From: Patescibacteria group bacterium | GTDB taxonomy: Bacteria; Patescibacteriota; Patescibacteriia; JAXHNJ01 | Direction of reading: 5' to 3' | Assembly (NCBI GenBank): GCA_041649715.1 | Contig: JBAZMP010000003.1 | Span: 100,894-164,893 of the forward strand | DNA: 64,000 bases | Part shown: positions 8,891-31,199 of the stretch, piece after piece | How positions within the stretch are numbered: the first letter of the stretch is position 1 | Layout: every line of letters starts with the position of its first letter | Program-made: the position numbers and the translations under genes | The notes under the pieces: model-generated | Told to the model about the DNA's origin: nothing | The model's database searches: none | The model's input: the letters and a program-made list of their open reading frames with translations, nothing else

Positions 8891-9012
8891 GTTTTTATAT
8901 TTATTAATAAGACCCTGTGATATTATTTTAGCACAAATGACACTTATAATCAAGAAAGCTGCGCTTTCTAGATCTGCTTTTTTAAAAAACGGATTTTTGT
9001 TAGAATAAAATC

Positions 9013-19703: not shown

Positions 19704-19835
19704 AATTTCGCAAAAAAGAGAGGTTTGATACACAATTCAAGCCCCTTTTTAATAACTACAAAAATTAATAGTTTTATATCTAATTTTTATCAATTATTTC
19801 GAGTGAGGTTATCGCGGCCCAAAAACACTTCTGTC

Positions 19836-19864
19836 TTGACAAATTCCCAAATATGTGCTAGCAT
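19836..19864 (+). promoter_or_regulatory. Strong sigma-70-like promoter TTGACA-17-TGcTAGCAT at the upstream edge of the GC-rich island
   Basis: 'cttgacaaat' then a 17-nt spacer ending in 'tgc', then 'tagcat'. Nearly the same architecture recurs at 25522-25550. Confidence 0.5.
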
Positions 19865-20011
19865 GGGGAGTTAAAATCAAAAATAAAACCTTTTCATTTT
19901 CAACCCCCAAATACGAAAAGGAGTGTAAATTTGGGGAAAAAGTCGTGTTGTTTGACAACCGAATACACTGTTTATCTTATCCCGACACCTCAAGAAAGGA
20001 GTAGGGAGAAT

Positions 20012-20302
20012 GTGAAGACGAAAACACGGGATGCGCCGATCAAAGTCCGGGTCGGGGCCGTGGAACAAAAGGGCGAGCACGGGGTGCCGTTCCTGGTTAC
20101 CTGGCCAACGAGCCCGACTTTGAAAGATTTAGGCAGTATCACGATCGAGCAGACAGCCGAGACCCTGCTAGGTGAACCCCCCTGTACGGGTGGCGAATAC
20201 CTAGTGGCTTTTGGTGTCTACCAGAAGGAAAAGGGTTGGCGTGCTCAAAAAGCCCGCCGATTCCGTCCGGATGATTTCAGAAATCCTGACATCATCCAGT
20301 AA
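20012..20302 (+). CDS. Hypothetical small protein (first gene of GC-rich island)
   Basis: GTG start preceded by 'aaggag' about 10 nt upstream. About 96 aa (VKTKTRDAPIKVRVGAVEQKGEHGVPFLVTW..). G+C-rich. Confidence 0.45.
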   Translation: MKTKTRDAPIKVRVGAVEQKGEHGVPFLVTWPTSPTLKDLGSITIEQTAETLLGEPPCTGGEYLVAFGVYQKEKGWRAQKARRFRPDDFRNPDIIQ

Positions 20303-20356
20303 AAGCATCGAGCATGTAGAACATGAGCATGTAGCACTCAGAAAGGATCGGCTACA

Positions 20357-21067
20357 ATGGCCAAGAAATCAATAAGGGGTTTGTTTGTCAAGACTGACGG
20401 ACAAGCTCCCAGACCCGGGTCCCCTTCCGGAAGTGCTTGGGCTCCGCCGGCTGGAACAGGTTTTGTCCCCGGCTCAGCTCCCAAGTCATATCTGGATACC
20501 GGCCCCCGGCGCGGTCAATCAAGCGGGAACGCGACCGCGGTAACTTCTACCGCCGTCGACACGCAGTTTACGGCCGAGATCGAGGAACAGCTCCGGACCG
20601 TGCCGACTCCCAAGGGTTTCGACATGTTCCTGGGCGCCCTCGAAAACTTGACCCAGTTCATCCCCGACGAAGGAAACCGCTTCAAGGCGGCGATGGTAAC
20701 GGCGGCCGCCAGCGGGCTGACGCCGGCACAAATCGTCGAGGCCCTGGAAGCGCAGCTGGCAGCCCTGGAAAAAATCCTGGCGACCTTCCAGAGCGATCTG
20801 GAAACGGAAGCCAACGAGTCGATCGCCGAACGCGAGTCGCAGCTAAAAACGCTGGCGACCCAGATCGGCGACCTCCAGCGGCAGCTGGCCGACATACAGA
20901 GAGAAATGCAGAAACTCTCTGACGATCAGAGAAGACTACAGGATGAAAACGCCCAGGTCGAGCAGCGTAAAAGCTTGGTAACCAACCGTTACTCAAGCGC
21001 GCACGCGGCCAAACTGGGCAAAACCCAAGAGCTGCTTTCAAAGGTACAGCGGTACCTCGGGCAGTAG
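20357..21067 (+). CDS. Hypothetical protein: Pro/Gly/Ser-rich disordered N-terminus plus helical/coiled-coil C-terminal half
   Basis: 236 aa. RBS 'aggatcgg' upstream. The C-terminal half has heptad-like text (LEAQLAALEKILATFQSDLE..LQRQLADIQREMQKLSDDQRRLQDENAQVEQ). Confidence 0.55.
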   Translation: MAKKSIRGLFVKTDGQAPRPGSPSGSAWAPPAGTGFVPGSAPKSYLDTGPRRGQSSGNATAVTSTAVDTQFTAEIEEQLRTVPTPKGFDMFLGALENLTQFIPDEGNRFKAAMVTAAASGLTPAQIVEALEAQLAALEKILATFQSDLETEANESIAERESQLKTLATQIGDLQRQLADIQREMQKLSDDQRRLQDENAQVEQRKSLVTNRYSSAHAAKLGKTQELLSKVQRYLGQ

Positions 21068-21081
21068 GAAAGAGGAACGAA

Positions 21082-22185
21082 ATGGTAGAGACACCCTCTT
21101 TGCCGCAGCTCAAGGGCTTCGGCAATGACATGCTTTCAAGCAAGGAGAAGACAATCGGAGCGATTGTCACTATCCTGCTGATTGGCGCCGCGCTGCTCGG
21201 GCTTAATGCCCTTCTTCCCGGCATCAATCATTTTCTCTCGGGTCTGCTGGCCGCGGTCGGCAAGCTCGTGATGCTTGCCATCTCCCTGGCCGGCCTAGCC
21301 TTGTTCCTGGCCGTCGCCATGAACAAGCGGACCCACACGCTTCTCAAGCTGGGGTTCTACTGGCTGGCGCGCAAGACCACGATGGCCTTCGTCAGGTACG
21401 GCCCGACCACCATCATTGAGATCTACAACGATCACCTGACCGCAAAAGCTCAGAAGTTCGGCGAGAAAAAGATGGTCGTGGATTCCAAGCGGGAGGTCGT
21501 GGCGCGCACCATTGAAGAGAACCAGGCTTCGATCAACGAGAGCCAGGCGAACGCCAAAACTCTCAAATCCCGGCACTTCGACGACAAACAGAGAAGGTGG
21601 GATTCGATCGAACACAAGAATCTCTTCATGGAGTACAGCTCGAACATCAGCTTCCGCGAGGCCTCCAACGTGAATCTGCGCAAGCAGCTTATCAGGCTGG
21701 AATACTATCTCCAGATCCTGGAGAAGTTCCAGCAGGCGTTCAATCACCGCCGTAACGTGATCAAGAACTTCTGCAAGATCCTAAACACGGAGTACGAAGC
21801 CATGAAGGCGGCCGCGGAGGGAACTCACGAACTCTCGGCGCTCTTCGGCACCGACGACCTAAAGCAGGTCTTCGACATGACCATCGACTTCATGAGAGAG
21901 CGGATCGCTTTCTTCACGAGCGAGGTCGACACCTTTATGAGCGAGAACCTGCCGGTCGTCACCGAGCTCGACCTGCAGAACGAAGTGGCGGAAGACCAGC
22001 TTCTCGCCAGACTGACGGACATGGACAAGAAAGCCGATCACCTGATCGACCAGGCCGCCCAAGATGAGGTGGCCCTGACCGATATCCGGGGATTGGCAAC
22101 GTTGGTCAAGTCCAACCAGGCAACCGCGGCCACCCAAACGACGCCCTCTTCAACAAGAAGGCATCGCTACCTGGGCGGAAACTAA
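21082..22185 (+). CDS. Hypothetical membrane protein (2-3 N-terminal TM helices, long cytoplasmic helical domain)
   Basis: 367 aa. TM segments IGAIVTILLIGAALLGL / LSGLLAAVGKLVMLAISLAGLALFLAV. The remainder is predicted helical. Starts 15 bp after the previous stop, so it is probably co-transcribed. Confidence 0.55.
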   Translation: MVETPSLPQLKGFGNDMLSSKEKTIGAIVTILLIGAALLGLNALLPGINHFLSGLLAAVGKLVMLAISLAGLALFLAVAMNKRTHTLLKLGFYWLARKTTMAFVRYGPTTIIEIYNDHLTAKAQKFGEKKMVVDSKREVVARTIEENQASINESQANAKTLKSRHFDDKQRRWDSIEHKNLFMEYSSNISFREASNVNLRKQLIRLEYYLQILEKFQQAFNHRRNVIKNFCKILNTEYEAMKAAAEGTHELSALFGTDDLKQVFDMTIDFMRERIAFFTSEVDTFMSENLPVVTELDLQNEVAEDQLLARLTDMDKKADHLIDQAAQDEVALTDIRGLATLVKSNQATAATQTTPSSTRRHRYLGGN

Positions 22186-22238
22186 TAAGTCTCTCATTTT
22201 CCCAATTCTCAACCAGAAAAGTCAGTAAAGGAGTAGTC

Positions 22239-23717
22239 ATGAAAAACCTTACTCTTCTCTCGAAGGTCCTGATCGGAGTCGTGATCCTCGCAATCGTCGG
22301 TTCCCTCCTGTGGTTCAGCGGCATCCTCAACAAGGAGCGGCCGCTGCGGGTCAGCGTGGTCACCTGGGGTGGCTATGCCGGGGGACAGCTTTGGAACGAA
22401 GGTTTCAAAGCCAGCGAGGAAAGCCGCTTCCTTAAGGAATACGGCGTTCCCGTCGAGTTCGTCCTGAACGATGATATCGAAAGCAGCTTGAAGGCTTGGG
22501 AAGCCGGCGAAGTTGACGCTCACTGGTGGACCGCCGACGTATTTTCGACGGTCGCTGATGAGCTAGCCGCTTACAATCCCAAGGTCTTCATGCAGGCTGA
22601 CTGGTCCAGAGGCGGCGACGCCATCGTGGTCGTTCGCGGCATCAATTCCGTGAACGATCTGCGAGGCCGGAAAATCGCCGTCGCTTTCAAGACCCCCAGT
22701 CACAGCTTTCTGCTTTGGGCCCTTGAATCCGCGGGCATGACCCCGAACGACGTCCAGATCGTGGAAGTCGCTTCCGCCATCGACGCGGCGGCGGCATTCA
22801 AAGCTGGACAAGTCGATGCGGCTGTTGTTTGGGCACCGGATGATCAAGGCTGTGTCGATGCGGTACCCGGCTCAACAATCTTGGCCAACACCAAGGATGC
22901 CAAGTACATCATCAGCGACGTCTTCTTCGCGAAAGAAGAAGTCCTCGTCGCCCGCCATGACGATTTTGTTTCCCTGGCGGAAGGCTGGCTCAAAGGCAGC
23001 GCGTTGATCAACACCGATCCGACGGCCAAGAACAGAGCGGCTGAAATCCTCTCAACTGGATTGAGCGTATCGGTAGATTACGCTCTCGGAGCCATCAACA
23101 ATGTTCGCCTCACCACTCTGGGAGACAACATCAACTTCTTCAACATCAATGGCAACTACCAGGGCGTCAAGGGCGAAGACATTTATACCAAGACGGGAAG
23201 AATGTACCAAAAGTACGGCATCATCAAGGGAAGCTTTCCGGATTGGCGCTCTGTCGTCGATCTTTCAATCGTGAAGGAAGTCATCGAAAGAGGCAAGCTG
23301 ACGGGCAATATGAACGCGGCTGAAGCGGCCACGACCTTCGAGCGGCCGACCGAAAAGATGGCCTCCGCCCCGGCCATGGCGACCAAACGCGTGACGATCA
23401 ACTTCGCCACCAACGTTTACGCCTTGGACGAAAACGCCATGCGCATCCTTGACCTGCAAGCGGCTGACGCTCTGCGGTTCATGGGCGGCGTACGCGTCCG
23501 TATCACTGGCAACACCGATAATGTCGGCGATTACCAGATGAACATGAACCTGTCCCAGAAGCGGGCCGAAGCGGTCGCCGATTACCTGGCGAGAACCTAC
23601 AAGTTCGACCGCAACCGGTTCGTCATCGTGGGCAAGGGTCCGGACAATCCGGTCGCCTCAAATGAGACGCCGGACGGCCGGGCAAAGAACCGTCGCACGG
23701 ATATCGAACTCTTCTAG
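22239..23717 (+). CDS. Membrane-anchored NMT1/SsuA-type ABC substrate-binding protein fused to a C-terminal OmpA-like domain
   Basis: N-terminal anchor (LLSKVLIGVVILAIVGSLLWF). Central domain resembles nitrate/sulfonate/taurine-type binding proteins. The C-terminus carries an OmpA-C-like segment (NTDNVGDYQMNMNLSQKRAEAVADYL..GKGPDNPVASNETPDGRAKNRRTDIELF). Confidence 0.6.
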   Translation: MKNLTLLSKVLIGVVILAIVGSLLWFSGILNKERPLRVSVVTWGGYAGGQLWNEGFKASEESRFLKEYGVPVEFVLNDDIESSLKAWEAGEVDAHWWTADVFSTVADELAAYNPKVFMQADWSRGGDAIVVVRGINSVNDLRGRKIAVAFKTPSHSFLLWALESAGMTPNDVQIVEVASAIDAAAAFKAGQVDAAVVWAPDDQGCVDAVPGSTILANTKDAKYIISDVFFAKEEVLVARHDDFVSLAEGWLKGSALINTDPTAKNRAAEILSTGLSVSVDYALGAINNVRLTTLGDNINFFNINGNYQGVKGEDIYTKTGRMYQKYGIIKGSFPDWRSVVDLSIVKEVIERGKLTGNMNAAEAATTFERPTEKMASAPAMATKRVTINFATNVYALDENAMRILDLQAADALRFMGGVRVRITGNTDNVGDYQMNMNLSQKRAEAVADYLARTYKFDRNRFVIVGKGPDNPVASNETPDGRAKNRRTDIELF

Positions 23718-23814
23718 GGCCACGGCCTGAAAGATAGTTTGGTATCATACCGCCAAAGGGGCGGGAGTCAACTGATTCCCGCCCCTCTCATCAACCTCCT
23801 GGGAAGGAGAACGA

Positions 23815-24612
23815 ATGCATAACAATGGAGACCTGTTTTGCCTCCGAGGCAAACTGCCGCCGAAAACTCGAATGGTAATCGAGCTCGCCGGCCTGGTCAT
23901 CATTCTCCTTGTCTGGTGGGCGGTCGTCGCGACTGGTCTGGTCAAGCCGAAAATGCTGCCTTCACCGATTTCCGTCGTTACCTGCTTCGGTGAACTGGTG
24001 AAGCAAAATCACTTGGTCGGAAACCTGCTCTTCTCGTTGATGCTCAACATCCTGGGGTATATTGAGGCCATCCTGATCGCTGTACCGCTTGGTTTTCTGA
24101 TCGGCCTCCAGCCTATCCCGCGAGCCCTGAGTGAAAGATACATCACCGCCGGACGGTTCCTGCCGCTTTCGGCCGTGGTCGGTCTGTTCATTATGTGGTT
24201 CGGGATGTACACCAACATGAAAGTGCAGTTTCTGAGCTTAGGCATCGTTGTCTATCTCCTGCCGATGGTCATCCAGAGAGTCGACGAGGTCGATCAGATC
24301 TATTTCGACACCGTCAAGACTCTGGGCGCCAGCAAATGGCAGGCCGTGACGAGCGTTTTTATCCCGGGTGCGCTCTCCAAGATCTCTGACGACATCCGGG
24401 TCATCGTCGCCATAAGTTGGACCTATATCATCATCGCTGAGGTGGTGAACAGGACCCAAGGCGGCATCGGAGCGCTGTGTTACGGCGTCAGTCGCGCTAG
24501 CCGTCCGGACAAAGTATTCGCCATTTTGGCTATAATCATCCTGATCGGGATCGTCCAGGACAAATTCTTTCTTTTCCTGGACAAGAAACTCCTCAAGCAC
24601 AAGTACGTCTGA
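23815..24612 (+). CDS. ABC transporter permease (NitT/TauT family, SsuC/TauC-like)
   Basis: Six TM helices. Region resembling the EAA loop (..LGASKWQAVTSVFIPGALSKISDDIRV..). RBS 'ggaaggag' upstream. Confidence 0.7.
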   Translation: MHNNGDLFCLRGKLPPKTRMVIELAGLVIILLVWWAVVATGLVKPKMLPSPISVVTCFGELVKQNHLVGNLLFSLMLNILGYIEAILIAVPLGFLIGLQPIPRALSERYITAGRFLPLSAVVGLFIMWFGMYTNMKVQFLSLGIVVYLLPMVIQRVDEVDQIYFDTVKTLGASKWQAVTSVFIPGALSKISDDIRVIVAISWTYIIIAEVVNRTQGGIGALCYGVSRASRPDKVFAILAIIILIGIVQDKFFLFLDKKLLKHKYV

Positions 24613-24630
24613 ACAAAGGAGGTTTGAAAG

Positions 24631-25446
24631 ATGCCGACGCTACTCCCAGTCGTCTTCGAAAATACAAACCTCCCGGACGTCATCGAGCTGCGCAACATTT
24701 GCCAGACGTACGACGGAGGAAAGGCTTGGGTCTTACAGTATGTCAACCTCCTGATCGAGGACATCCCCGACCAGGGACAGTTCGTGGTCATACTCGGACC
24801 CTCAGGCTGCGGCAAATCAACGCTTCTGAAATATATTGCCGGCCTGCAAAAACCGACCAGTGGGGAAGTGCTGATCAGCGGAAAGGTCCGTACCGATGAC
24901 GTCGTCGTCGGCATGGTCTTCCAGCAGTACTCCTCCCTGCCCTGGTTCACGGTACTTGAGAACGTCATGCTGGGGCTAAGGTTTCAGAACGTGCCGGAGA
25001 AGGAAGCCCGGGAAAAAGCGATGCAAATGCTCGAAGTCGTCGGACTGGCCTGCGAGGCGAACAAATTCGCCAAAAGCACCCAGCTTTCCGGCGGCCAGAT
25101 GCAGCGCGTCGCCATCGCCCGCAGCTTGATCTCCAACCCCGGCATTATCCTGATGGACGAGCCGTTCGGCGCCCTGGACATCAACACCAGGCACCAGATG
25201 CAGCTCCTCCTCTGCGATATCTGGGAAAAGCTGCAGTCAACCATCATCTTCGTCACCCATGATATCAACGAAGCCGTGTTCCTGGCTGACGATATCTATG
25301 TGATGACGAAGAACCCCGGTTACATCTGCAAGCACTGGATAATTGACCTGCCCAAGCATCGTGACCGGTCAACCAAGCGTGACCCGCGGTTCATCGAACT
25401 CGCCAACGAGATCGATGATTACATGCAGAACTTACGCATCAAATAG
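24631..25446 (+). CDS. ABC transporter ATP-binding protein (NitT/TauT family)
   Basis: Walker A GPSGCGKST, signature LSGGQMQRVAIARSL, Walker B ILMDEPFGALD, H-loop VTHD. Confidence 0.85.
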   Translation: MPTLLPVVFENTNLPDVIELRNICQTYDGGKAWVLQYVNLLIEDIPDQGQFVVILGPSGCGKSTLLKYIAGLQKPTSGEVLISGKVRTDDVVVGMVFQQYSSLPWFTVLENVMLGLRFQNVPEKEAREKAMQMLEVVGLACEANKFAKSTQLSGGQMQRVAIARSLISNPGIILMDEPFGALDINTRHQMQLLLCDIWEKLQSTIIFVTHDINEAVFLADDIYVMTKNPGYICKHWIIDLPKHRDRSTKRDPRFIELANEIDDYMQNLRIK

Positions 25447-25468
25447 CTCATTTTTCATTCGCACATAA

Positions 25469-25500
25469 GGCTGACCCCTCAAAAGGTCAGCCTTTTTCTT
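25469..25500 (+). terminator. Rho-independent terminator after the ABC ATPase gene
   Basis: Stem ggctgacc/ggtcagcc followed by 'tttttctttt'. Confidence 0.6.
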
Positions 25501-25521
25501 TTGCCCAAATTCCTAAAATCC

Positions 25522-25550
25522 TTGACAAATAAATAATTTCGTGCTAATAT
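25522..25550 (+). promoter_or_regulatory. Strong sigma-70-like promoter TTGACA-17-TGcTAATAT for the AAA+ ATPase gene
   Basis: 'cttgacaaat'..'gtgctaatatg'. Same architecture as 19836-19864 and 33648-33676. Confidence 0.5.
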
Positions 25551-25623
25551 GTTGGGTTAATTTGCACCTTGTAATTTTGATATTTTTCACAGAGGCATTG
25601 AAAAAAAGAAAGGCAGGCACAGA

Positions 25624-27480
25624 GTGAAAGATGGTATAAAAAAGCAGCCGTTATCGCACGGAGAAGACGATTTTGAAAGCAGCGGTATTCCCGGTCTCGA
25701 CGACGCGGTCAAATCACTGGATAACATTCCCAAAATCCTGGGCCGCAGACGAGAAATGACGCGGAAAACGGAAGGTCATCTTCGCAAAGAAATGGCCGAA
25801 ACCGGCGAAACAGAGGAAAATCCTCTTCAGCCGGCCCTGGTTCGCGCCATGATCACCGCGGGCAAGCTCGCCCGTCATCTCGAGTCACAGCGGGAAAAAC
25901 CCGGCTATTACGGCGTGGTTTTTTCCCGACTGGCAGCAATGACCGATCCGGAAAAGTTCGATTACGGCAAGATTCAGCCGGGCACCAAGGTCAAAATCCT
26001 CACCAACGAAAACCAGCCGGAATTAATGGGGCAAGTGGGCTACACAGCCAACGAACCCGATTCGGACGGTCTTGTCATGGTGCTTTTCGATGAAGGCGAA
26101 TTCGGCCATTTCCTGGCTGTGCCGCCGGACGAAAAGCAACCGAGGGAGATCGAAATTGTCCCCGGCCAAGACCGAGTCATCGTCCTTTTCGAAGGACGCT
26201 TCATCGAGCTGGCTTCTCCGGAAGGAATGACCCTTTCCAGCGGCCAGGTGGTCAAGCTGGATCTGAAAACCAACCAGATCCTGGATATCGTCAGCCTAGA
26301 ACTGCCGGGCGAGATCGCCACGGTAAAATGTATCTTGGGCGGCCGCGTCCAAATCGACTTCCACGGTACCGATAAAATCGTGGCGGCCGGCGACCTGACC
26401 AAGACCTTAGAGCCCGGCAATCAGGTGATCTTAGACTCAACCAACCAGCTGATCACTGGCAACCTCGGCGACATGGATGTTTCCTACCGCTACAACCGCC
26501 CGCCGGCCATCACCTGGGATGATATCGGCGGACAGACCGCAGCCAAAGCCATACTCCAAGAGATGATTGAGGCGCGCTTCGATCATCCGGCCGCTTTTGA
26601 AAGGTTTCACAAGAAACCCCCCAAGGGCCTGCTTCTGCTCGGCCCCACCGGCTGCGGCAAGACGATGTTGGCCGAAGCCATGGCCTATTCGCTTTCGAAG
26701 CGCTTCGGTGAAACCGCCATGCGTTCCGGCTTTTTCCTGGTCAAGGGACCGGAGATTCTGCGCTCGCTCGTCGGCGAACAGGAAGCTATCATGCGCCACA
26801 TCTTCGTCCTGGCAGACAAGCACTTCGCCAAATTCGGCTTCCCCGCCATCATCTTCATCGATGAATGCGAAGGCATCTTGAAAAAGCGGGGCACGGGCAC
26901 CAGCGGCGACTACTTCGAAACGCTGGTGCAAACCTTCTTGGCCCTGATGAACGACACCAAGGCCATCGTCGTACTGGCGACAAATAGGCCGGATATGCTC
27001 GACCCGGCGGTGGTCCGCCACAAGCGCATCGACCGCAAGATTCCGGTTCGTCGTCCGGATCGGCCGGCCTCCGAGGAAATCTTCAGAATCTATCTGAAAG
27101 ATCTCCCTCTCTCCGAGGGCTTGACCGGCGAGACACTGGCCAAACTGGTGACAACCGAGCTTTTCTCGGACTGCTACGGCATGTACAAACTCATTGTCCA
27201 GACCGAAAACGGAACAGAAGAGAAAATCTTTGGCCTAGCGCAGGTCATCAACGGCGCCATGATCGCCGGGATAGTAGATGAGGCCACCTCGGCCGCCGTC
27301 AACCGGCAGATCAAAGACGGTAAGGAAACCAGTCTGACCGCAGATGACCTAAAAGAAGCCCTGAGCAGAGTCTATCAGGGCGAACTCCTGACCGATCACA
27401 CCGAAGACCAGAAAGAATTCGGGGAAAACCTGACCGGCAAGGTCCTGGAAGCCCACAAGCTCTTTGTGGGCCGCAAATAG
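25624..27480 (+). CDS. ARC/Mpa-family (proteasome-associated-ATPase-like) AAA+ unfoldase; no C-terminal GQYL-type proteasome-docking tail
   Basis: Predicted GTG start. N-terminal short helix, then a beta-rich inter-domain region, then an AAA module: ITWDDIGG, Walker A LLLGPTGCGKT, Walker B IIFIDECEG. ARC/Mpa-like stretches (FFLVKGPEILRSLVGEQE.., KKRGTGTSGDYFETLVQTFL, ATNRPDMLDPAVVRHKRIDRKIPVRRPD) are matched against the ARC/Mpa family from memory. The protein ends ..LFVGRK. Confidence 0.75.
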   Translation: MKDGIKKQPLSHGEDDFESSGIPGLDDAVKSLDNIPKILGRRREMTRKTEGHLRKEMAETGETEENPLQPALVRAMITAGKLARHLESQREKPGYYGVVFSRLAAMTDPEKFDYGKIQPGTKVKILTNENQPELMGQVGYTANEPDSDGLVMVLFDEGEFGHFLAVPPDEKQPREIEIVPGQDRVIVLFEGRFIELASPEGMTLSSGQVVKLDLKTNQILDIVSLELPGEIATVKCILGGRVQIDFHGTDKIVAAGDLTKTLEPGNQVILDSTNQLITGNLGDMDVSYRYNRPPAITWDDIGGQTAAKAILQEMIEARFDHPAAFERFHKKPPKGLLLLGPTGCGKTMLAEAMAYSLSKRFGETAMRSGFFLVKGPEILRSLVGEQEAIMRHIFVLADKHFAKFGFPAIIFIDECEGILKKRGTGTSGDYFETLVQTFLALMNDTKAIVVLATNRPDMLDPAVVRHKRIDRKIPVRRPDRPASEEIFRIYLKDLPLSEGLTGETLAKLVTTELFSDCYGMYKLIVQTENGTEEKIFGLAQVINGAMIAGIVDEATSAAVNRQIKDGKETSLTADDLKEALSRVYQGELLTDHTEDQKEFGENLTGKVLEAHKLFVGRK

Positions 27481-27503: not shown

Positions 27504-27537
27504 ACACTCCGGGAGAAATCTCGGAGTGTTTTTTTAT
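27504..27537 (+). terminator. Rho-independent terminator after the AAA+ ATPase gene (downstream boundary of the GC-rich island)
   Basis: acactccg-(10 nt)-cggagtgt followed by 'ttttttt'. Confidence 0.6.
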
Positions 27538-27550
27538 ATTGCAATATTTT

Positions 27551-28249
27551 TTAATATGTTGGCGCTATGGGTAAAACATAGTCATCTTCATGTATCAGAT
27601 GCATGTTTTCAGTAATATAGGAATAATCAGAATCTTCATATTTTACATCAATTAAAAATCGACATAAATAATATCCAAATAAAACCTCGTCATTGCCCAT
27701 TGACTCGCAGTTGGCAATCTTAACTCCTTTTCTATCGTAATAATTAATACCGCCATCAAGGCAACCGATATAGGGAAACATACTAAATGGAGCATCGCAT
27801 ATTTCCGCATATATCCGGCCGTATCTTTTAGTATTCCAGGAAACGATTGGCCAATTGTCATAGTGCTCTCTATTAATGATGTTATTAATAACTGTCATAT
27901 CTACCCTGTCATTTTCGGGATTCTTTAAGGGTTTTTGGGTGAAAAGAAAAGGCGTGCCATATAATATTAAAATCGAAATAATTATAAGTATAAGGGCTGA
28001 TAAAACATTCTTTCTATTAATTAGTGAGATAAGACAGGCAAAAATATATAATGCGATTGCATAGATGCTATAAAATAAAAATAATATGTCAACGGTAATG
28101 CTAGATTCAAGATATTGAAATAGCGAAACGTATATATTTACCTCAAAAAAATCAAAAAAGAATAAATACTCAATAACGGTGACAACGATTAATCCCAAAA
28201 GGATTAATATCTTCTTTTTGGTCGGTTTTAAGTGTTTTAAAAATCGCAT
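27551..28249 (-). CDS. Hypothetical membrane protein in a very AT-rich segment
   Basis: 232 aa. Three N-terminal TM helices and a Cys-containing extracytoplasmic domain. The segment is noticeably more A+T-rich than its neighbours. Confidence 0.45.
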   Translation of the reverse strand: MRFLKHLKPTKKKILILLGLIVVTVIEYLFFFDFFEVNIYVSLFQYLESSITVDILFLFYSIYAIALYIFACLISLINRKNVLSALILIIISILILYGTPFLFTQKPLKNPENDRVDMTVINNIINREHYDNWPIVSWNTKRYGRIYAEICDAPFSMFPYIGCLDGGINYYDRKGVKIANCESMGNDEVLFGYYLCRFLIDVKYEDSDYSYITENMHLIHEDDYVLPIAPTY

Positions 28250-28268: not shown

Positions 28269-29399
28269 CTACCACTCCCATTCGCGTCCTTCCGGTATGA
28301 CCTCAACCCAGGTCTGACCGCGGTTGAACTCTATTTCCTGTCCGCTAGAATCATAAAAAATAGTGCGGTCGGTCCGCTCCGGTTTTTTCCAGGTGCCTTC
28401 GACCGCAAGGCCATCCCGCAAGACAAAAGCCTTACCCTCACCATGAGTACTTAAACCAAGCCTGCCCTTTTCGCCCAGATACTCCTCCGGCGGGACAATT
28501 TGAACGATAATATTCTTAGCCTTCAATTCCTGCTTATTATTGGCATCCACTTGCACTTGATCCGCGTTATATCTTAAATATAAATTTTCCTCTTTGATGT
28601 ATTTCCACTCCACTTCGTAGGTATAAGAGGAAAATTTAACTTTATAAAACTTTTGGTCTTCGCCCCTATCAGCCAGAACCGCATCGTCTTTAAAAAGCCA
28701 CATCCTCGTGGTTGATTGCTTTTCTAAAAGTCCCTTGTCGCGCAAGGCATAAACGAGCTTCTCCCCGGAAGTGAAAAGATTGTGCGGGGCAAAGAGGGTG
28801 TGGTCCCGCCAAAAATAGACCGCGTCCCTGGATAGGGCATTTAAATCATTGGTGTCATAATCGCGGATATTGCCTAAGGCGGCCGGCGAACCGCCGGCGT
28901 GAGCGTACAAAGCGGCGTATTCATAAGCCCAGTCCAAATAATAGGGGCGGGCCGATCTTACCGGACCAATAACGGGGGCGGTTGAACCGCCGGTAAATAA
29001 AACCAGGAAACGAGTCGCGCCGCCTTCCGCTAAAGTTTCGTAAATAATCGATGCCTGGCTAAGGCCGGCTTGCGGCCGCACGGACAGCAGATTCTCAATC
29101 ATCACTCCGACCGGCCATAGATTGGCGGCCGCCGCGTCCTTTACTTTCTGGCCGTCAAACCGACGGTAATATTCCTCCGGCTTAAGGACAACAGTCATCG
29201 GAGGGGTATCGTTTTTAACCTTGTCATGCGCCAAAACCGGCAAGATATCGAAACCATTTAAAAATATTGAAAGGCTGAAGAACACCCCGGCAAAAACAAA
29301 CAAACCGACCACTATGAAAAGACGAGCCTTCAAATCAAAAAGAGGGCTGACTTTTTTCTTTGTTAAAATCTTATTGTTCTTTTTGTTTTTGTTTTTCAT
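28269..29399 (-). CDS. DUF3048 domain protein (YerB-like), membrane-anchored
   Basis: N-terminal TM, then ..ENLLSVRPQAGLSQASIIYETLAEGGATRFLVLF.. typical of DUF3048. Paralogous to the next gene. Confidence 0.65.
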   Translation of the reverse strand: MKNKNKKNNKILTKKKVSPLFDLKARLFIVVGLFVFAGVFFSLSIFLNGFDILPVLAHDKVKNDTPPMTVVLKPEEYYRRFDGQKVKDAAAANLWPVGVMIENLLSVRPQAGLSQASIIYETLAEGGATRFLVLFTGGSTAPVIGPVRSARPYYLDWAYEYAALYAHAGGSPAALGNIRDYDTNDLNALSRDAVYFWRDHTLFAPHNLFTSGEKLVYALRDKGLLEKQSTTRMWLFKDDAVLADRGEDQKFYKVKFSSYTYEVEWKYIKEENLYLRYNADQVQVDANNKQELKAKNIIVQIVPPEEYLGEKGRLGLSTHGEGKAFVLRDGLAVEGTWKKPERTDRTIFYDSSGQEIEFNRGQTWVEVIPEGREWEW

Positions 29400-29416
29400 T
29401 TTTTTGTAACGTGAAA

Positions 29417-30499
29417 CTAGTTATAAGTAACGGTCCGGTCATCCGGCACCACTTGAATCCAAGTCTGTCCCGCGTTGAATTCTATCTCTTTGCCCGTCTC
29501 GTCGTAGAACAGGGTCCTTTGGTTCCGACCTTCCTTTTTCCAGGTGGCGGCTGTCGCCTTCCCGTCCTGAAAAATGACCGCCTGCCCTTCGCCGATCGTT
29601 ACCATAGAAAGCCGGCCTTCCTCGATGACCGAGGTCTTGACATACTGAACCACGACATTTTTGGCGGCCATCTGTTCGTTTTTTTGATTGACGAACGGCT
29701 CGCCGCCCTGCGCCCTCAAATAGACGTTTTTCTCCCGGTCATATGTATATTCCACCTTATAGGAGAAACTGGAATAATCGATAGCGATGTTCCTTTGTTC
29801 GGTCGGCCGACTGCCCAGGGCCGCCTCTTCCTTAAATTGGTAGCCCTCATAGTTACCTTCCGCGGGCGCTTTTTTATCCCGTAGAGCAAAGATCAAAAGA
29901 TCGCTGGAAGTGAAAACATTGTGGGGCGCCGCAATTTTTTTGTCTCGCCAGAAATAACGGCTGTCATAGAACTGGTCTAGATTAAACACGTCGTAAGTTG
30001 AAATCAAAGACATAGCCAGGGGGCTGCCGCCGACATGACCATAAAGAGCGTTATATTCCTTCACCCAGTCTAAAAAGTACGGCCGGGCCGAGCGGACGGG
30101 ACCGATTTTGGCTATCGATGAAGTTAAATTATAAACGGCCATAAAACGGGTAATCCCCCCTTCGGCTAAAGCCTCGTAGACCAGATTCGCGTTCTCCAAA
30201 CCCGCTTGGGGCCTGACCGTCACCAAATTTTCAATCATTACGGCCACGGGGTATAATTGGCGGTTTTCCCTCACATCATAAACTCCGTCAATCACCCGCC
30301 TGACCTGGTCTTCTTTATTGTTGACAATTGAGCCGTTAGAATTGTCTTTTCCCTGGCGGCCGAAAATAAAATACCCGAGCAGACTGACGGCTACGAGCAA
30401 AGCACCGGTAATACTAATAAGCAGCCATTTCTTGCTTTTTTTGACCGTCGCCAGATATTTTTCTTTTTCTCCTTCAATTTTTATCTTTGTCTCACCCAT
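29417..30499 (-). CDS. DUF3048 domain protein (paralogue), membrane-anchored
   Basis: ..ENLVTVRPQAGLENANLVYEALAEGGITRFMAVY... Start set at MGETKIK. The K/R-rich upstream extension in the ORF track is the rplY 3' end read in another frame. Confidence 0.6.
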   Translation of the reverse strand: MGETKIKIEGEKEKYLATVKKSKKWLLISITGALLVAVSLLGYFIFGRQGKDNSNGSIVNNKEDQVRRVIDGVYDVRENRQLYPVAVMIENLVTVRPQAGLENANLVYEALAEGGITRFMAVYNLTSSIAKIGPVRSARPYFLDWVKEYNALYGHVGGSPLAMSLISTYDVFNLDQFYDSRYFWRDKKIAAPHNVFTSSDLLIFALRDKKAPAEGNYEGYQFKEEAALGSRPTEQRNIAIDYSSFSYKVEYTYDREKNVYLRAQGGEPFVNQKNEQMAAKNVVVQYVKTSVIEEGRLSMVTIGEGQAVIFQDGKATAATWKKEGRNQRTLFYDETGKEIEFNAGQTWIQVVPDDRTVTYN

Positions 30500-31199
30500 T
30501 TTTTTCTTCCTTAGTTTTTGGCGCCGCCGGCTCATTCTTTTTTTCCTCGCCTTCTTCCTCTTCCTTCTTCTCTTTTTCGACCTTCTCCACTTCTTCAACT
30601 TTTTCTTCCGGTTTTTCCTCCAGGGCTTTTAATTCTTCTTCGCTTCTGGGTGGTATGACTTTGGCCACCGCTTCCCCGCTCTGGTCCAAAACTTCGATAT
30701 TGGCCGGGATTTTTAAATCGCGGACGTAGATAATATCTTCAAAAGTCTTAAGACGGCTCAAATCCACTTCTATCTCATGAACCAGGTCGGCCGGCAAACA
30801 AGTGATCTTAAGACGGTCTAAACTTTTGACCAAAACGCCGGACAAACCCTTAACGGCTGGCGATTCGCCGACAAAATTCAAAGCGACTTCCGTGGTAATC
30901 TTTTCGGTCATTTTTACCTGGTGAAAATCCGCATGTATCATCTGGTCACTCTTGGAGTCAAATTGGATCGCCTGGATCAGCACCTTTATCGGCTTTTTTT
31001 CGGCGATAATCAGATCTACTAGGCTTGATTCTCCGGCTTTGGCAAAAACTTTTTTTAGATCAAAATAGTTGACGGCTAAAGAAAGCGGCTTAGTATCATG
31101 GCCGTAAACCACGGCCGGCACCATATTTTCTTTTCGCAATTTATTATTTTGTTTGCCCTTTGCTTCGCGGATTTTCGCTTTTAGCGTTATAGTTTCCAT
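30492..31199 (-). CDS. rplY: 50S ribosomal protein L25 (general stress protein Ctc form, acidic/lysine-rich C-terminal tail)
   Basis: METITLKAKIREAKGKQNNKLRKENMVPAVVYGH.. matches the L25/Ctc N-domain. Low-complexity EK-rich tail. Confidence 0.8.
   Translation of the reverse strand: METITLKAKIREAKGKQNNKLRKENMVPAVVYGHDTKPLSLAVNYFDLKKVFAKAGESSLVDLIIAEKKPIKVLIQAIQFDSKSDQMIHADFHQVKMTEKITTEVALNFVGESPAVKGLSGVLVKSLDRLKITCLPADLVHEIEVDLSRLKTFEDIIYVRDLKIPANIEVLDQSGEAVAKVIPPRSEEELKALEEKPEEKVEEVEKVEKEKKEEEEGEEKKNEPAAPKTKEEKNG

What the first reader, a model, noticed from the sequence alone, without database searches (positions are those of the whole stretch)
25624..27480. ARC/Mpa-like AAA+ ATPase without a proteasome-docking C-terminus and without Pup-proteasome genes nearby
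The AAA module has ARC/Mpa-like stretches (FFLVKGPEILRSLVGEQE..., KKRGTGTSGDYFETLVQTFL, ATNRPDMLDPAVVRHKRIDRKIPVRRPD), which I matched against that family from memory. It is preceded by a beta-rich inter-domain region (tandem OB-fold-like) and a short N-terminal helix. The protein ends ..LFVGRK rather than the GQYL-type tail used to dock onto 20S proteasomes. It is transcribed from its own near-consensus promoter (TTGACA-17-TGcTAATAT). An ARC homologue in an AT-rich, reduced genome, acquired on a GC-rich island, suggests a proteasome-independent unfoldase role.
Basis: partly seen in the sequence, partly recalled or inferred. Interest (0 to 1): 0.7.

Follow-up and report, generated by a model that had tools for sequence, protein, structure and literature searches.

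The report
Mpa-like ATPase on envelope-stress operon
A real relative of the bacterial proteasome ATPase (Mpa/ARC), in a tiny-celled Patescibacteria genome with no proteasome genes in view, is the last gene of a conserved seven-gene membrane module, so it probably remodels that module's coiled-coil proteins rather than feeding a protease.

Summary
ORF 25624-27480 (+) encodes a 618-aa classical AAA+ ATPase. Its best family model, best structural matches and tree position are all Mpa/ARC. It has intact ATPase motifs, the Mpa-type double OB region and a β-grasp-like insert. It lacks the GQYL/HbYX tail, scores below the Mpa equivalog cutoff (240 vs 505 bits) and sits in a sister clade to Pup-ligase-linked Mpa homologues. 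No Pup, Pup ligase or 20S gene occurs in about 75 kb of annotated contig.

The gene is the seventh member of a GC-rich island (19.9-27.5 kb). The island also encodes a small "GWRA" protein, a 236-aa coiled-coil protein, a 367-aa two-TM helical protein weakly PspA/Vipp1-like, a solute-binding/OmpA fusion, a permease and an ABC ATPase. This module was catalogued in 2024 as a PspA/Snf7-ABC-AAA+ operon, with a different ATPase type. The six-gene core also occurs without any AAA. A second lineage of these ATPases (Bacteroidota) sits behind an analogous TelA-ABC module.

Best reading (about 0.45): an accessory, proteasome-independent unfoldase that remodels the module's coiled-coil proteins, Vps4-like in logic. 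New variant of a known kind; interest 0.58.

The parts
19835..19874 (+). Promoter-like block P1 ahead of the cassette (TTGACA-17-TAGCAT with TG). It shares a 40-nt block, 70% identical, with P2.
   Evidence: repeat family D4
20012..20302 (+). Small 'GWRA' protein, about 96 aa (the longest ORF starts at 19931, 123 aa). First gene of the conserved core module. No known family.
   Evidence: An HMM built from window and L001 copies finds it in L085, L086/87 (E 3.7e-21), L088 (5e-16) and L092 (1.4e-8). No Pfam or NCBIfam hit.
20357..21067 (+). 236-aa coiled-coil protein. N-terminal 'LFVK' segment, Pro/Gly-rich linker with 'KSYLG', C-terminal coiled coil ending RYLGQ.
   Evidence: Only coiled-coil-type Pfam hits below cutoff. 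Orthologues in L001, L088, L086 and L092/93. The (Y/H)LGQ tail occurs only where the AAA gene is present.
21082..22185 (+). 367-aa protein with two N-terminal TM helices, a long helical hairpin, a disordered tail and an RRHRYLGGN end. Candidate PspA/ESCRT-III-superfamily member.
22239..23717 (+). Solute-binding protein (NMT1/SsuA-like, NitT/TauT type) fused to a C-terminal OmpA-like peptidoglycan-binding domain.
   Evidence: Pfam NMT1, NMT1_2 and OmpA; NCBIfam.
23815..24612 (+). ABC transporter permease (BPD_transp_1; TauC/SaoP-like).
24631..25446 (+). ABC transporter ATP-binding protein (TauB/SaoA-like).
25467..25494 (+). Intrinsic-terminator-like hairpin plus T-run after the ABC ATPase gene.
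25521..25560 (+). Promoter-like block P2 of the AAA gene: -35 TTGACA 25522-25527, 17-nt spacer, TG-extended -10 TAATAT 25545-25550.
25624..27480 (+). ARC/Mpa-like AAA+ ATPase, 618 aa (the finding).
25690..25893 (+). Residues 23-90: N-terminal helices, in the position of Mpa's coiled coil. Conserved 'SGIPxLDxA..L..IP..LG' motif.
   Evidence: (pLDDT about 50-72)
25906..26472 (+). Residues 95-283: β-rich region. An extra β-domain (about 95-180) followed by the double-OB region homologous to ARC residues 79-210.
   Evidence: weak Prot_ATP_ID_OB_C hit at 231-277, E 0.17
26509..27183 (+). Residues 296-520: AAA module. Walker A GPTGCGKT (nt 26641-26664), pore loop 1 L-V-G (26767-26775), Walker B D413-E414 (26860-26865), SRH arginines R465 and R468 (27016-27027).
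27178..27459 (+). Residues 519-612: β-hairpin 519-537 inserted in the helical subdomain, plus terminal strand 606-612. This is the predicted counterpart of Mpa's β-grasp domain.
   Evidence: DSSP of the model. The C-terminal 98 aa hit only pup_AAA. Definition of the Mpa β-grasp from PMC9599533.
27454..27477 (+). C-terminal tail HKLFVGRK. Clade-conserved KL(Y/F)(Q/V)GR(K/R). Not GQYL or HbYX.
27504..27529 (+). Intrinsic-terminator-like hairpin (11 pairs) plus T-run after the AAA gene.

Best explanation
The gene encodes a hexameric, ATP-driven protein unfoldase of the Mpa/ARC lineage that does not work with a proteasome.

It is an accessory seventh component of a conserved envelope module. The module comprises a small 'GWRA' protein, a 236-aa coiled-coil protein, a 367-aa membrane-anchored helical protein of probable PspA/ESCRT-III type, and a NitT/TauT-type ABC importer whose binding protein is tethered to peptidoglycan by an OmpA domain.

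Proposed mechanism:
1. The N-terminal helices and β/OB ring of the ATPase engage exposed terminal segments of the module's coiled-coil proteins. Candidates are the YLG-type C-terminal tails.
2. The pore loops pull on them.
3. This disassembles or resets their membrane-associated assemblies.
This is the logic by which Vps4 recycles ESCRT-III, carried out here by an ATPase from the proteasomal-ATPase family.

Shown: family placement, domain architecture, intact ATPase motifs, absence of the docking tail and of nearby Pup/proteasome genes, conserved synteny, and an independent second lineage with an analogous module.

Inferred: hexamer formation, the identity of the substrates, the role of the tails, and the PspA-like nature of the partners.
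For: ARC-clade identity:
- TIGR03689 is the best model for the whole protein, the AAA module alone and the C-terminal piece.
- The top 30 PDB structural hits are all Mpa.
- 31% identity, E 1e-47 to a true ARC, including its OB region.
- NJ tree: ARC-like group including a true ARC 191/200; non-pupylation subclade 154/200.
- Walker A and B and the arginine fingers are intact.

No proteasome link:
- No GQYL/HbYX tail.
- No Pup, Pup-ligase or proteasome family in about 75 kb.
- A real Pup-ligase query finds homologues beside the Mpa-like genes of L007, L008 and L020, but none in the window or L001-L005.

Link to the module:
- The same gene order with the AAA gene last is seen in L001 (69% identity) and L088.
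- The whole cassette forms one compositional island.
- The two promoters share a 40-nt block.
- The 236-aa protein's (Y/H)LGQ tail is present only in AAA-bearing loci.
- Bacteroidota ARC-like ATPases independently follow TelA + NMT1-type SBP + permease + ABC ATPase.
- Ravi et al. 2024 describe PspA + TM-Snf7 + PBPb/OmpA + permease + ABC + AAA+ operons and propose ATP-dependent membrane remodelling.
- L004 has a bona fide PspA 1.2 kb from its ARC-like gene.

Against: - The AAA gene has its own promoter and is separated from the ABC genes by a terminator-like hairpin.
- The six-gene core module occurs without any adjacent AAA in Campbellbacteria (a complete genome) and in L092/L093. The ATPase is therefore dispensable for the module.
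- The PspA/ESCRT-III identity of the partners is weak. There is no direct Pfam hit (part A). hhalign against PspA and TelA gives nothing. Foldseek's best E is 0.09, and BAR or coiled-coil proteins score as well as Vipp1. The 367-aa model is poor (pLDDT 55.7).
- Basic-Tyr-x-x-Leu-Leu tails are common across the whole 367-aa family, including an AAA-less locus. That tail is not specific to the ATPase.
- Pore loop 1 is Leu-Val-Gly, not aromatic, which may mean weak gripping.
- Only three independent loci of the window's clade were seen.
- There is no interaction evidence of any kind.
Confidence: 0.45

Rival explanations
1. It is a free-standing, general proteasome-independent unfoldase or chaperone, possibly feeding another protease. 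Its position next to the ABC/coiled-coil module is incidental or reflects co-transfer only. This is essentially the first reader's reading.
For: It has its own promoter and terminators on both sides. The core module exists without it. The related 36-40% clade has quite different neighbours.
Against: Adjacency is conserved in L001 and L088. An independent Bacteroidota lineage shows the same kind of ABC-module adjacency twice. The promoters share a block. The 236-aa protein's tail co-varies with the ATPase. A published parallel exists with another AAA+ type.
Confidence: 0.27
2. It is an ordinary Mpa. The genome carries Pup, PafA/Dop and a 20S proteasome elsewhere, and the ATPase feeds tagged proteins to it.
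For: Mpa-like fold, including the double OB and a β-grasp-like insert. A CPR relative (Saccharibacteria, L020) does have Pup-ligase genes next to its Mpa-like gene. Only about 75 kb of the 235-kb contig, and none of the rest of the genome, could be inspected.
Against: Its score is below the equivalog cutoff (240 vs 505 bits). There is no GQYL or penultimate Tyr. It falls in a clade separate from true ARC and the Pup-ligase-linked homologues. There is no Pup ligase in any frame and no GG(Q/E)-ending ORF in 64 kb. No proteasome family appears in about 75 kb.
Confidence: 0.04
3. It is a membrane-protein extractase or assembly chaperone for the transporter. It would pull the two-TM helical protein, or mis-assembled ABC components, out of the membrane (Msp1/FtsH-like logic) rather than recycling a polymer.
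For: The linkage is the same as for the best explanation. The partner conserved across both lineages is the SBP-permease-ABC set, while the helical protein differs (PspA-like vs TelA).
Against: The ATPase has no membrane anchor and no protease domain. Nothing distinguishes this reading from the best explanation with present data.
Confidence: 0.14
4. It is a component of a mobile anti-phage defence island.
For: Compositional island. Weak PADLOC matches to IetA and TRIP13 AAA models, and an OmpA/ZorB-like match for the binding protein.
Against: The PADLOC scores (69 bits or less) are generic AAA or OmpA similarity, far below the ARC match. No integrase, flanking repeats or tRNA lies at the island edges. 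No close relative occurs on phages or plasmids. The island sits at the same prfA-prmC / DUF3048 neighbourhood in a 69%-identical relative.
Confidence: 0.05

Closest known systems
Mpa/ARC, the mycobacterial/actinobacterial proteasome ATPase (TIGR03689; PDB 5KWA, 7PX9)
   Same: Same lineage and architecture: N-terminal helices, double OB region, one classical AAA module, a β-hairpin inserted in the helical subdomain plus a terminal strand (β-grasp-like). It is the best HMM, structural and tree match.
   Different: Below the equivalog cutoff. No GQYL tail. An extra β-domain at about 95-180. Non-aromatic pore loop 1 (LVG vs FVG). No Pup, PafA/Dop or PrcAB nearby. It falls in a sister clade whose members sit in membrane-module contexts instead.
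PspA/Snf7-ABC transporter-AAA+ operons of the PSP/ESCRT-III-like systems (Ravi et al. 2024, PMC11237479; example OGG56892.1, Handelsmanbacteria)
   Same: Same gene content: a coiled-coil 'PspA' protein, a TM-anchored helical 'Snf7-like' protein, a PBPb+OmpA binding protein, a permease, an ABC ATPase and a classical AAA+ ATPase.
   Different: The published ATPase is described as 'inactive AAA + AAA'. Here it is a single AAA with OB domains of the Mpa lineage. The gene order differs, and the ATPase is on its own promoter. I could not confirm PspA/Snf7 homology directly.
Vps4/CdvC with ESCRT-III (archaea, eukaryotes)
   Same: Proposed working logic: a classical AAA hexamer encoded beside membrane-binding helical-hairpin proteins with exposed C-terminal motifs, which it would disassemble.
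   Different: Not the same family (CdvC 78 bits vs ARC 240 bits). No MIT domain. The tails are not MIM motifs. Function untested.
PAN / Rpt1-6 proteasomal ATPases
   Same: Coiled coil-OB-AAA plan. They are the next-best structural matches after Mpa.
   Different: They have a single OB domain and an HbYX tail and are partnered with a proteasome. HMM scores are lower (133-146 bits).

Membership tests
Mpa/ARC proteasome ATPase (TIGR03689 equivalog) | Whole-protein score at or above the curated equivalog cutoff (504.75 bits) | tested here: not met
   239.7 bits. Relatives score 283-357 bits; the Verrucomicrobiota protein L006 scores 428 bits.
Mpa/ARC proteasome ATPase | AAA module belongs to the ARC clade rather than PAN, CDC48, FtsH or Vps4 | tested here: met
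   Module-only scores: pup_AAA 185.5, CDC48 152.5, PAN 133, FtsH 124, CdvC 78. NJ tree with a true ARC: 191/200.
Mpa/ARC proteasome ATPase | Two OB domains between the coiled coil and the AAA module | tested here: met
   Predicted β-rich region 95-283. 471 columns aligned to Mpa chains. BLASTP aligns residues 183-295 to ARC 79-210. This rests on a prediction, and there is an extra β-domain.
Mpa/ARC proteasome ATPase | N-terminal coiled coil that binds Pup | tested here: inconclusive
   Helices 23-53 and 68-90 are predicted at low confidence. No Pup gene was found, and binding is not testable here.
Mpa/ARC proteasome ATPase | C-terminal β-grasp domain (hairpin inserted in the helical subdomain, a third strand and a helix) | tested here: met
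   Strands 519-527 and 530-537, and strand 606-612, in a high-confidence part of the model. The C-terminal 98 aa match only pup_AAA. Definition from PMC9599533. Prediction only.
Mpa/ARC proteasome ATPase | C-terminal GQYL (HbYX-type) 20S-docking motif | tested here: not met
   The protein ends HKLFVGRK, and its clade has KL(Y/F)(Q/V)GR(K/R). The ARC control ends NTGQYL.
Mpa/ARC proteasome ATPase | Genomic company of pup, pafA/dop and prcAB | tested here: not met
   None in about 75 kb. The rest of the genome is not testable with these tools.
PspA/Snf7-ABC-AAA+ operon (Ravi et al. 2024) | PBPb+OmpA binding protein, permease and ABC ATPase next to a classical AAA+ gene | tested here: met
PspA/Snf7-ABC-AAA+ operon (Ravi et al. 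2024) | PspA and TM-anchored Snf7-like (ESCRT-III superfamily) proteins in the operon | tested here: inconclusive
PspA/Snf7-ABC-AAA+ operon (Ravi et al. 2024) | ATPase of the 'inactive AAA + active AAA' two-domain type | tested here: not met
   A single AAA domain preceded by OB-type β-domains.
Vps4/CdvC | N-terminal MIT domain and Vps4-family AAA module | tested here: not met
   CdvC model 78 bits vs cutoff 650. The N-terminal region is helices plus β-barrels.
CDC48/p97, FtsH, PAN | Two AAA domains (CDC48); TM plus M41 protease domain (FtsH); single OB plus HbYX (PAN) | tested here: not met
   One AAA domain and no protease domain. Lower HMM scores. Separated from them in the tree.

The most novel reading that the evidence does not exclude
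The non-pupylation sister clade of Mpa/ARC, to which this protein belongs, is the long-missing bacterial counterpart of Vps4: a classical AAA unfoldase dedicated to recycling PspA/ESCRT-III-like or TelA-type membrane-stress assemblies coupled to ABC transporters. It would recognise short terminal motifs or small Pup-like adaptor peptides that need no ligase. If so, the proteasomal role of Mpa could be a later specialisation of an older membrane-remodelling unfoldase.
Probability: 0.2. Interest if true: 0.8.

Novelty: new variant of a known kind. Interest (0 to 1): 0.58.

Why it matters
A 2025 review states that a Vps4-like ATPase "appears absent in bacteria", which leaves open how PspA/Vipp1-type polymers are disassembled (PMC7619361).

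An unfoldase of the proteasomal-ATPase lineage that is repeatedly encoded behind PspA-like or TelA plus ABC-transporter modules, in two distant phyla, is a concrete and testable candidate for that role.

It also shows that Mpa/ARC-type ATPases have a sizeable non-proteasomal branch. This bears on how the Pup-proteasome system arose. It is also a warning for annotation: many of these proteins are auto-labelled "proteasome-associated ATPase" in organisms where no proteasome is in evidence.

Tried and rejected
- Sequence-only test of the N-terminal 295-299 aa against PDB and NCBIfam: no hit. Structure prediction was needed instead.
- hhalign of the 367-aa family (5 and 118 sequences) against a true PspA (L004) and a true TelA (L005): probability 0.3 or less. 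The templates were single sequences, so this is uninformative rather than negative.
- The idea that the window's small first-gene protein is the same as the small β-protein upstream of the 36-40% clade's ATPases: rejected (hhalign probability 0.06; the HMMs do not cross-hit).
- The idea that the window encodes a Pup-like acidic peptide like those after the ATPase in other clades: an HMM of five such peptides finds nothing (best E 0.73). The peptides themselves have no Pfam Pup hit.
- The idea that the RYLG tail of the 367-aa protein is specific to AAA-bearing loci: weakened, because similar basic-Tyr-x-x-Leu-Leu tails are family-wide.
- Defence-system reading: only generic PADLOC hits.
- Phage or plasmid origin: no close relatives. 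No flanking repeats or tRNA at the island edges.
- Metagenome scan for more window-clade loci: unproductive because the patterns were too specific. The exact AAA protein was not on record for the contig look-up.
- The first bootstrap run timed out. Two tree runs used a wrongly extracted ARC segment and are superseded.
Full report
**1. The observation**

Two orthologues conserve the N-terminus from the first residues (motif SGIPxLDxA..L..IP..LG), which supports the start.

Pfam sees one classical AAA domain at residues 336-476.

The best NCBIfam model is TIGR03689, the proteasome ATPase Mpa/ARC, at 239.7 bits (E 5.8e-71, residues 201-584). Next come CDC48 (157), PAN (146), FtsH (127) and CdvC/Vps4 (78). 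The score is well below the 504.75-bit equivalog cutoff.

Cut to the AAA module alone, the order is unchanged (185.5, 152.5, 133, 124, 78). The last 98 residues match only the Mpa model.

An AlphaFold2 model built on 49 homologues is confident (mean pLDDT 85). It shows:
- helices at 23-53 and 68-90, at low confidence;
- a β-rich block at 95-283;
- the AAA module;
- a β-hairpin (519-537) inserted in the helical subdomain;
- a terminal strand at 606-612.

Its top 30 PDB matches are all M. tuberculosis Mpa chains (best E 3.5e-33, 471 aligned columns, 28% identity, target-normalised TM-score 0.72). Rpt subunits of the 26S proteasome follow.

BLASTP to a genuine actinobacterial ARC (Tsukamurella, which ends ...NTGQYL) gives 31% identity over 422 residues, E 1e-47. 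Window residues 183-559 pair with ARC 79-497, so the match runs through ARC's OB region. Window residues 95-180 or so are therefore an additional β-domain. This is my inference, and the tandem-OB description is right but incomplete.

Taken alone, the N-terminal 295-299 residues give no sequence-level hit.

**2. Motifs**

Walker A (GPTGCGKT), Walker B (IDECE) and both SRH arginines (R465, R468) are intact.

Pore loop 1 is S-L-V-G in the window's clade, where most relatives have Y/F/W-V-G.

The C-terminus is HKLFVGRK. The clade consensus is KL(Y/F)(Q/V)GR(K/R). There is no penultimate Tyr, so no GQYL or HbYX motif.

[quoted passage not shown] The window protein keeps the second and, by prediction, the third. 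It lacks the fourth.

**3. Phylogeny**

I took AAA modules from the homologue set and from fetched loci and aligned them to a family HMM (222 columns). An NJ tree with 200 bootstraps gave the following:

| Split | Support |
|---|---|
| True ARC, the Pup-ligase-linked Verrucomicrobiota and Saccharibacteria proteins, and all non-pupylation ARC-like proteins, together against PAN-sized archaeal, FtsH-sized bacterial and two-domain CDC48-type modules | 191/200 |
| Non-pupylation proteins as one clade | 154/200 |
| The window's own clade (5 sequences at 59-100% identity) | 200/200 |

An earlier MAFFT-based tree without the true ARC agrees.

The outgroup labels rest on length and taxon, not on curated annotation. 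The method is simple distance-based NJ.

**4. Pup-proteasome genes**

Precomputed Pfam annotation covers contig positions 94.5-169.7 kb, which is the whole window plus margins. It shows housekeeping genes typical of CPR bacteria and no Pup, Pup_ligase or Proteasome family.

As a positive control I used a real Pup-ligase protein that lies immediately after the Mpa-like gene in a Saccharibacteria MAG (L020; PF03136, 374 bits). phmmer with it finds homologues beside the Mpa-like genes of L007, L008 (two) and L020 (two). It finds nothing in any frame of the window or of L001-L005. No window ORF ends in GG(Q/E).

The remainder of the genome could not be searched.

**5. Promoter and island**

TTGACA-17-(TG)TAATAT lies at 25522-25550. 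Terminator-like hairpins sit at 25467-25494, after the upstream ABC gene, and at 27504-27529.

A second promoter-like site at 19836-19864 precedes the cassette. The two share a 40-nt block at 70% identity that extends beyond the hexamers, which hints at common regulation.

The island 19931-27480 has GC 0.554 against 0.455 for the rest of the window. No other 7.5-kb stretch exceeds 0.491. GC3 is 0.69-0.80 in island genes and 0.31-0.59 in flanking genes. The internal intergenic regions are AT-rich.

No tRNA gene or flanking repeat marks the island edges. No close relative of the ATPase is on known phages or plasmids.

Source names on two cassette proteins place the contig in a Patescibacteria MAG.

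**6. Context: the main new point**

The ATPase is the last of seven co-oriented genes:

| Coordinates | Product |
|---|---|
| 20012-20302 | about 96-aa protein with a C-terminal GWRA...RP motif |
| 20357-21067 | 236-aa coiled-coil protein |
| 21082-22185 | 367-aa protein with two TM helices and a long helical region |
| 22239-23717 | NMT1/SsuA-type solute-binding protein fused to an OmpA domain |
| 23815-24612 | permease |
| 24631-25446 | ABC ATPase |
| 25624-27480 | the AAA ATPase |

The same series with the AAA gene last occurs in L001 (ATPase 69% identical) and in L088. L001 lies near the same prfA-prmC and DUF3048 genes. It also carries YqiJ/NfeD-like, Band_7 and Pro_CA_2 genes.

Ravi et al. 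2024 describe exactly this gene content: PspA, a TM-anchored divergent Snf7, a PBPb+OmpA binding protein, a permease, an ABC ATPase and a classical AAA+ ATPase. They propose ATP-dependent membrane remodelling comparable to Snf7 and VPS4. Their ATPase, however, is an "inactive AAA + AAA" protein.

**7. How firm are the partners' identities?**

Neither helical protein hits PspA_IM30, Snf7 or TelA directly.

An exhaustive profile search shows that the 367-aa protein belongs to a large family: 541 clusters at 50% identity, all about 330-370 aa. Among 118 members scanned, PspA_IM30 is the Pfam family hit most often (11 members, best E 7.5e-5; the next family has 4).

Profile-profile comparisons to single PspA and TelA sequences were blank.

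I treat the PspA/ESCRT-III assignment as plausible but unproven.

**8. Is the ATPase really tied to the module?**

For:
- The synteny described above.
- The shared island and promoter block.
- Bacteroidota ARC-like ATPases (L005, L094) independently follow TelA + NMT1-type binding protein + permease + ABC ATPase. L094 also has OmpA and VWA genes upstream.
- L004 has a true PspA 1.2 kb from its ARC-like gene.
- The 236-aa protein carries a (Y/H)LGQ C-terminal extension only in the three loci that have the ATPase. It is absent in L086 and L092/L093.

Against:
- The six-gene core occurs without any AAA gene in a complete Campbellbacteria genome and in L092/L093. The ATPase is therefore an accessory.
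- It has its own promoter and terminators.
- The basic-Tyr-x-x-Leu-Leu tail of the 367-aa family is widespread, not ATPase-specific.

**9. Mechanism and verdict**

Most likely (about 0.45), this is an Mpa-lineage unfoldase that has no proteasome partner and serves the envelope module. It would thread exposed terminal segments of the coiled-coil or PspA-like proteins to disassemble or reset their membrane-associated assemblies, as Vps4 does for ESCRT-III.

The family placement, architecture, motif integrity, absence of docking tail and nearby Pup genes, and the synteny are shown. Hexamer formation, substrates and tail recognition are inferred.

Rivals:
- a free-standing general unfoldase (0.27);
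- a membrane extractase or assembly chaperone for the transporter (0.14);
- a defence-island component (0.05);
- an ordinary Mpa with the proteasome encoded elsewhere (0.04).

The thing is a new variant of known kinds: an Mpa-type ATPase in place of the AAA+ component of a catalogued PSP-type operon. It is a member of a sizeable, largely unremarked non-pupylation branch of the ARC family.

It matters because a 2025 review states that a Vps4-like ATPase appears absent in bacteria, and this gives a testable candidate.

Noticed in passing
L002 9592-12443; L003 9570-12324; L004 9336-12083: The 36-40%-identical clade of ARC-like ATPases sits in a conserved four-gene unit. It comprises a small β-protein (108-142 aa), the ATPase, a 63-69-aa peptide and a DUF1360 membrane protein with a CxYC motif. 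The peptide has a basic N-terminus, an acidic helix ('PEIDEVLAKVDDAIE') reminiscent of Pup's Mpa-binding helix, and a C-terminal CxC. No Pup Pfam hit and no Pup ligase. It could be a ligase-free, membrane-tethered Pup-like adaptor.
   Followed up: partly
L005 310-6889; L094 4483-11048: Bacteroidota ARC-like ATPases follow TelA (PF05816) + NMT1-type binding protein + permease + ABC ATPase. They are followed by a 55-64-aa acidic peptide ('IDDVI(L/E)EI(D/E)T'). L094 also has OmpA and VWA genes upstream.
   Followed up: partly
L020 4476-9792: A Saccharibacteria (CPR) MAG has an Mpa-like ATPase (pup_AAA 315 bits) immediately followed by two Pup-ligase-family genes. Pupylation-type loci therefore exist in CPR. 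Verrucomicrobiota loci L007 and L008 show the same arrangement.
   Followed up: partly
window 19835-19874 and 25521-25560: The two promoter-like regions share a 40-nt block (70% identity): CTTGACAAAT...GTGCTA..ATG..GGG.TTAA. This suggests a common regulator or sigma-factor context for the cassette and the ATPase gene.
   Followed up: no
window 20357-21067 and 21082-22185: There are recurrent YLG-type short motifs: 'KSYLG' in the disordered linker and 'RYLGQ' at the C-terminus of the 236-aa protein, and 'RRHRYLGGN' at the C-terminus of the 367-aa protein. Basic-Tyr-x-x-Leu-Leu tails are common across the whole 367-aa family. Their binding partner is unknown.
   Followed up: partly
window 20012-20302; L001 3189-3440 and 11178-11456: The small 'GWRA' protein is the conserved first gene of the core module and belongs to no known family. 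In L001 it is duplicated, with the second copy just after the ATPase gene.
   Followed up: partly
L001 11178-17663: The related island in L001 is larger. It adds a YqiJ/NfeD-like protein, two Band_7 (flotillin/SPFH) proteins, a Pro_CA_2 protein and two unknown proteins. These partners are repeatedly linked to PspA systems in the literature.
   Followed up: no
window 27551-28249 (-): An orphan, very AT-rich (GC 0.31) gene for a 232-aa multi-TM protein with no family match abuts the GC-rich island, between it and two tandem DUF3048 paralogues (28269-30598).
   Followed up: no
window 5939-8953 (-): A second compositional outlier (GC 0.54-0.57 at 6-8 kb) coincides with a roughly 1000-aa NHL/TEN-repeat protein gene.
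   Followed up: no
one search hit table: Many members of the non-pupylation clade are auto-named 'proteasome-associated ATPase' by a source pipeline, although the loci inspected have no proteasome context. This is probably a systematic over-annotation.
   Followed up: no
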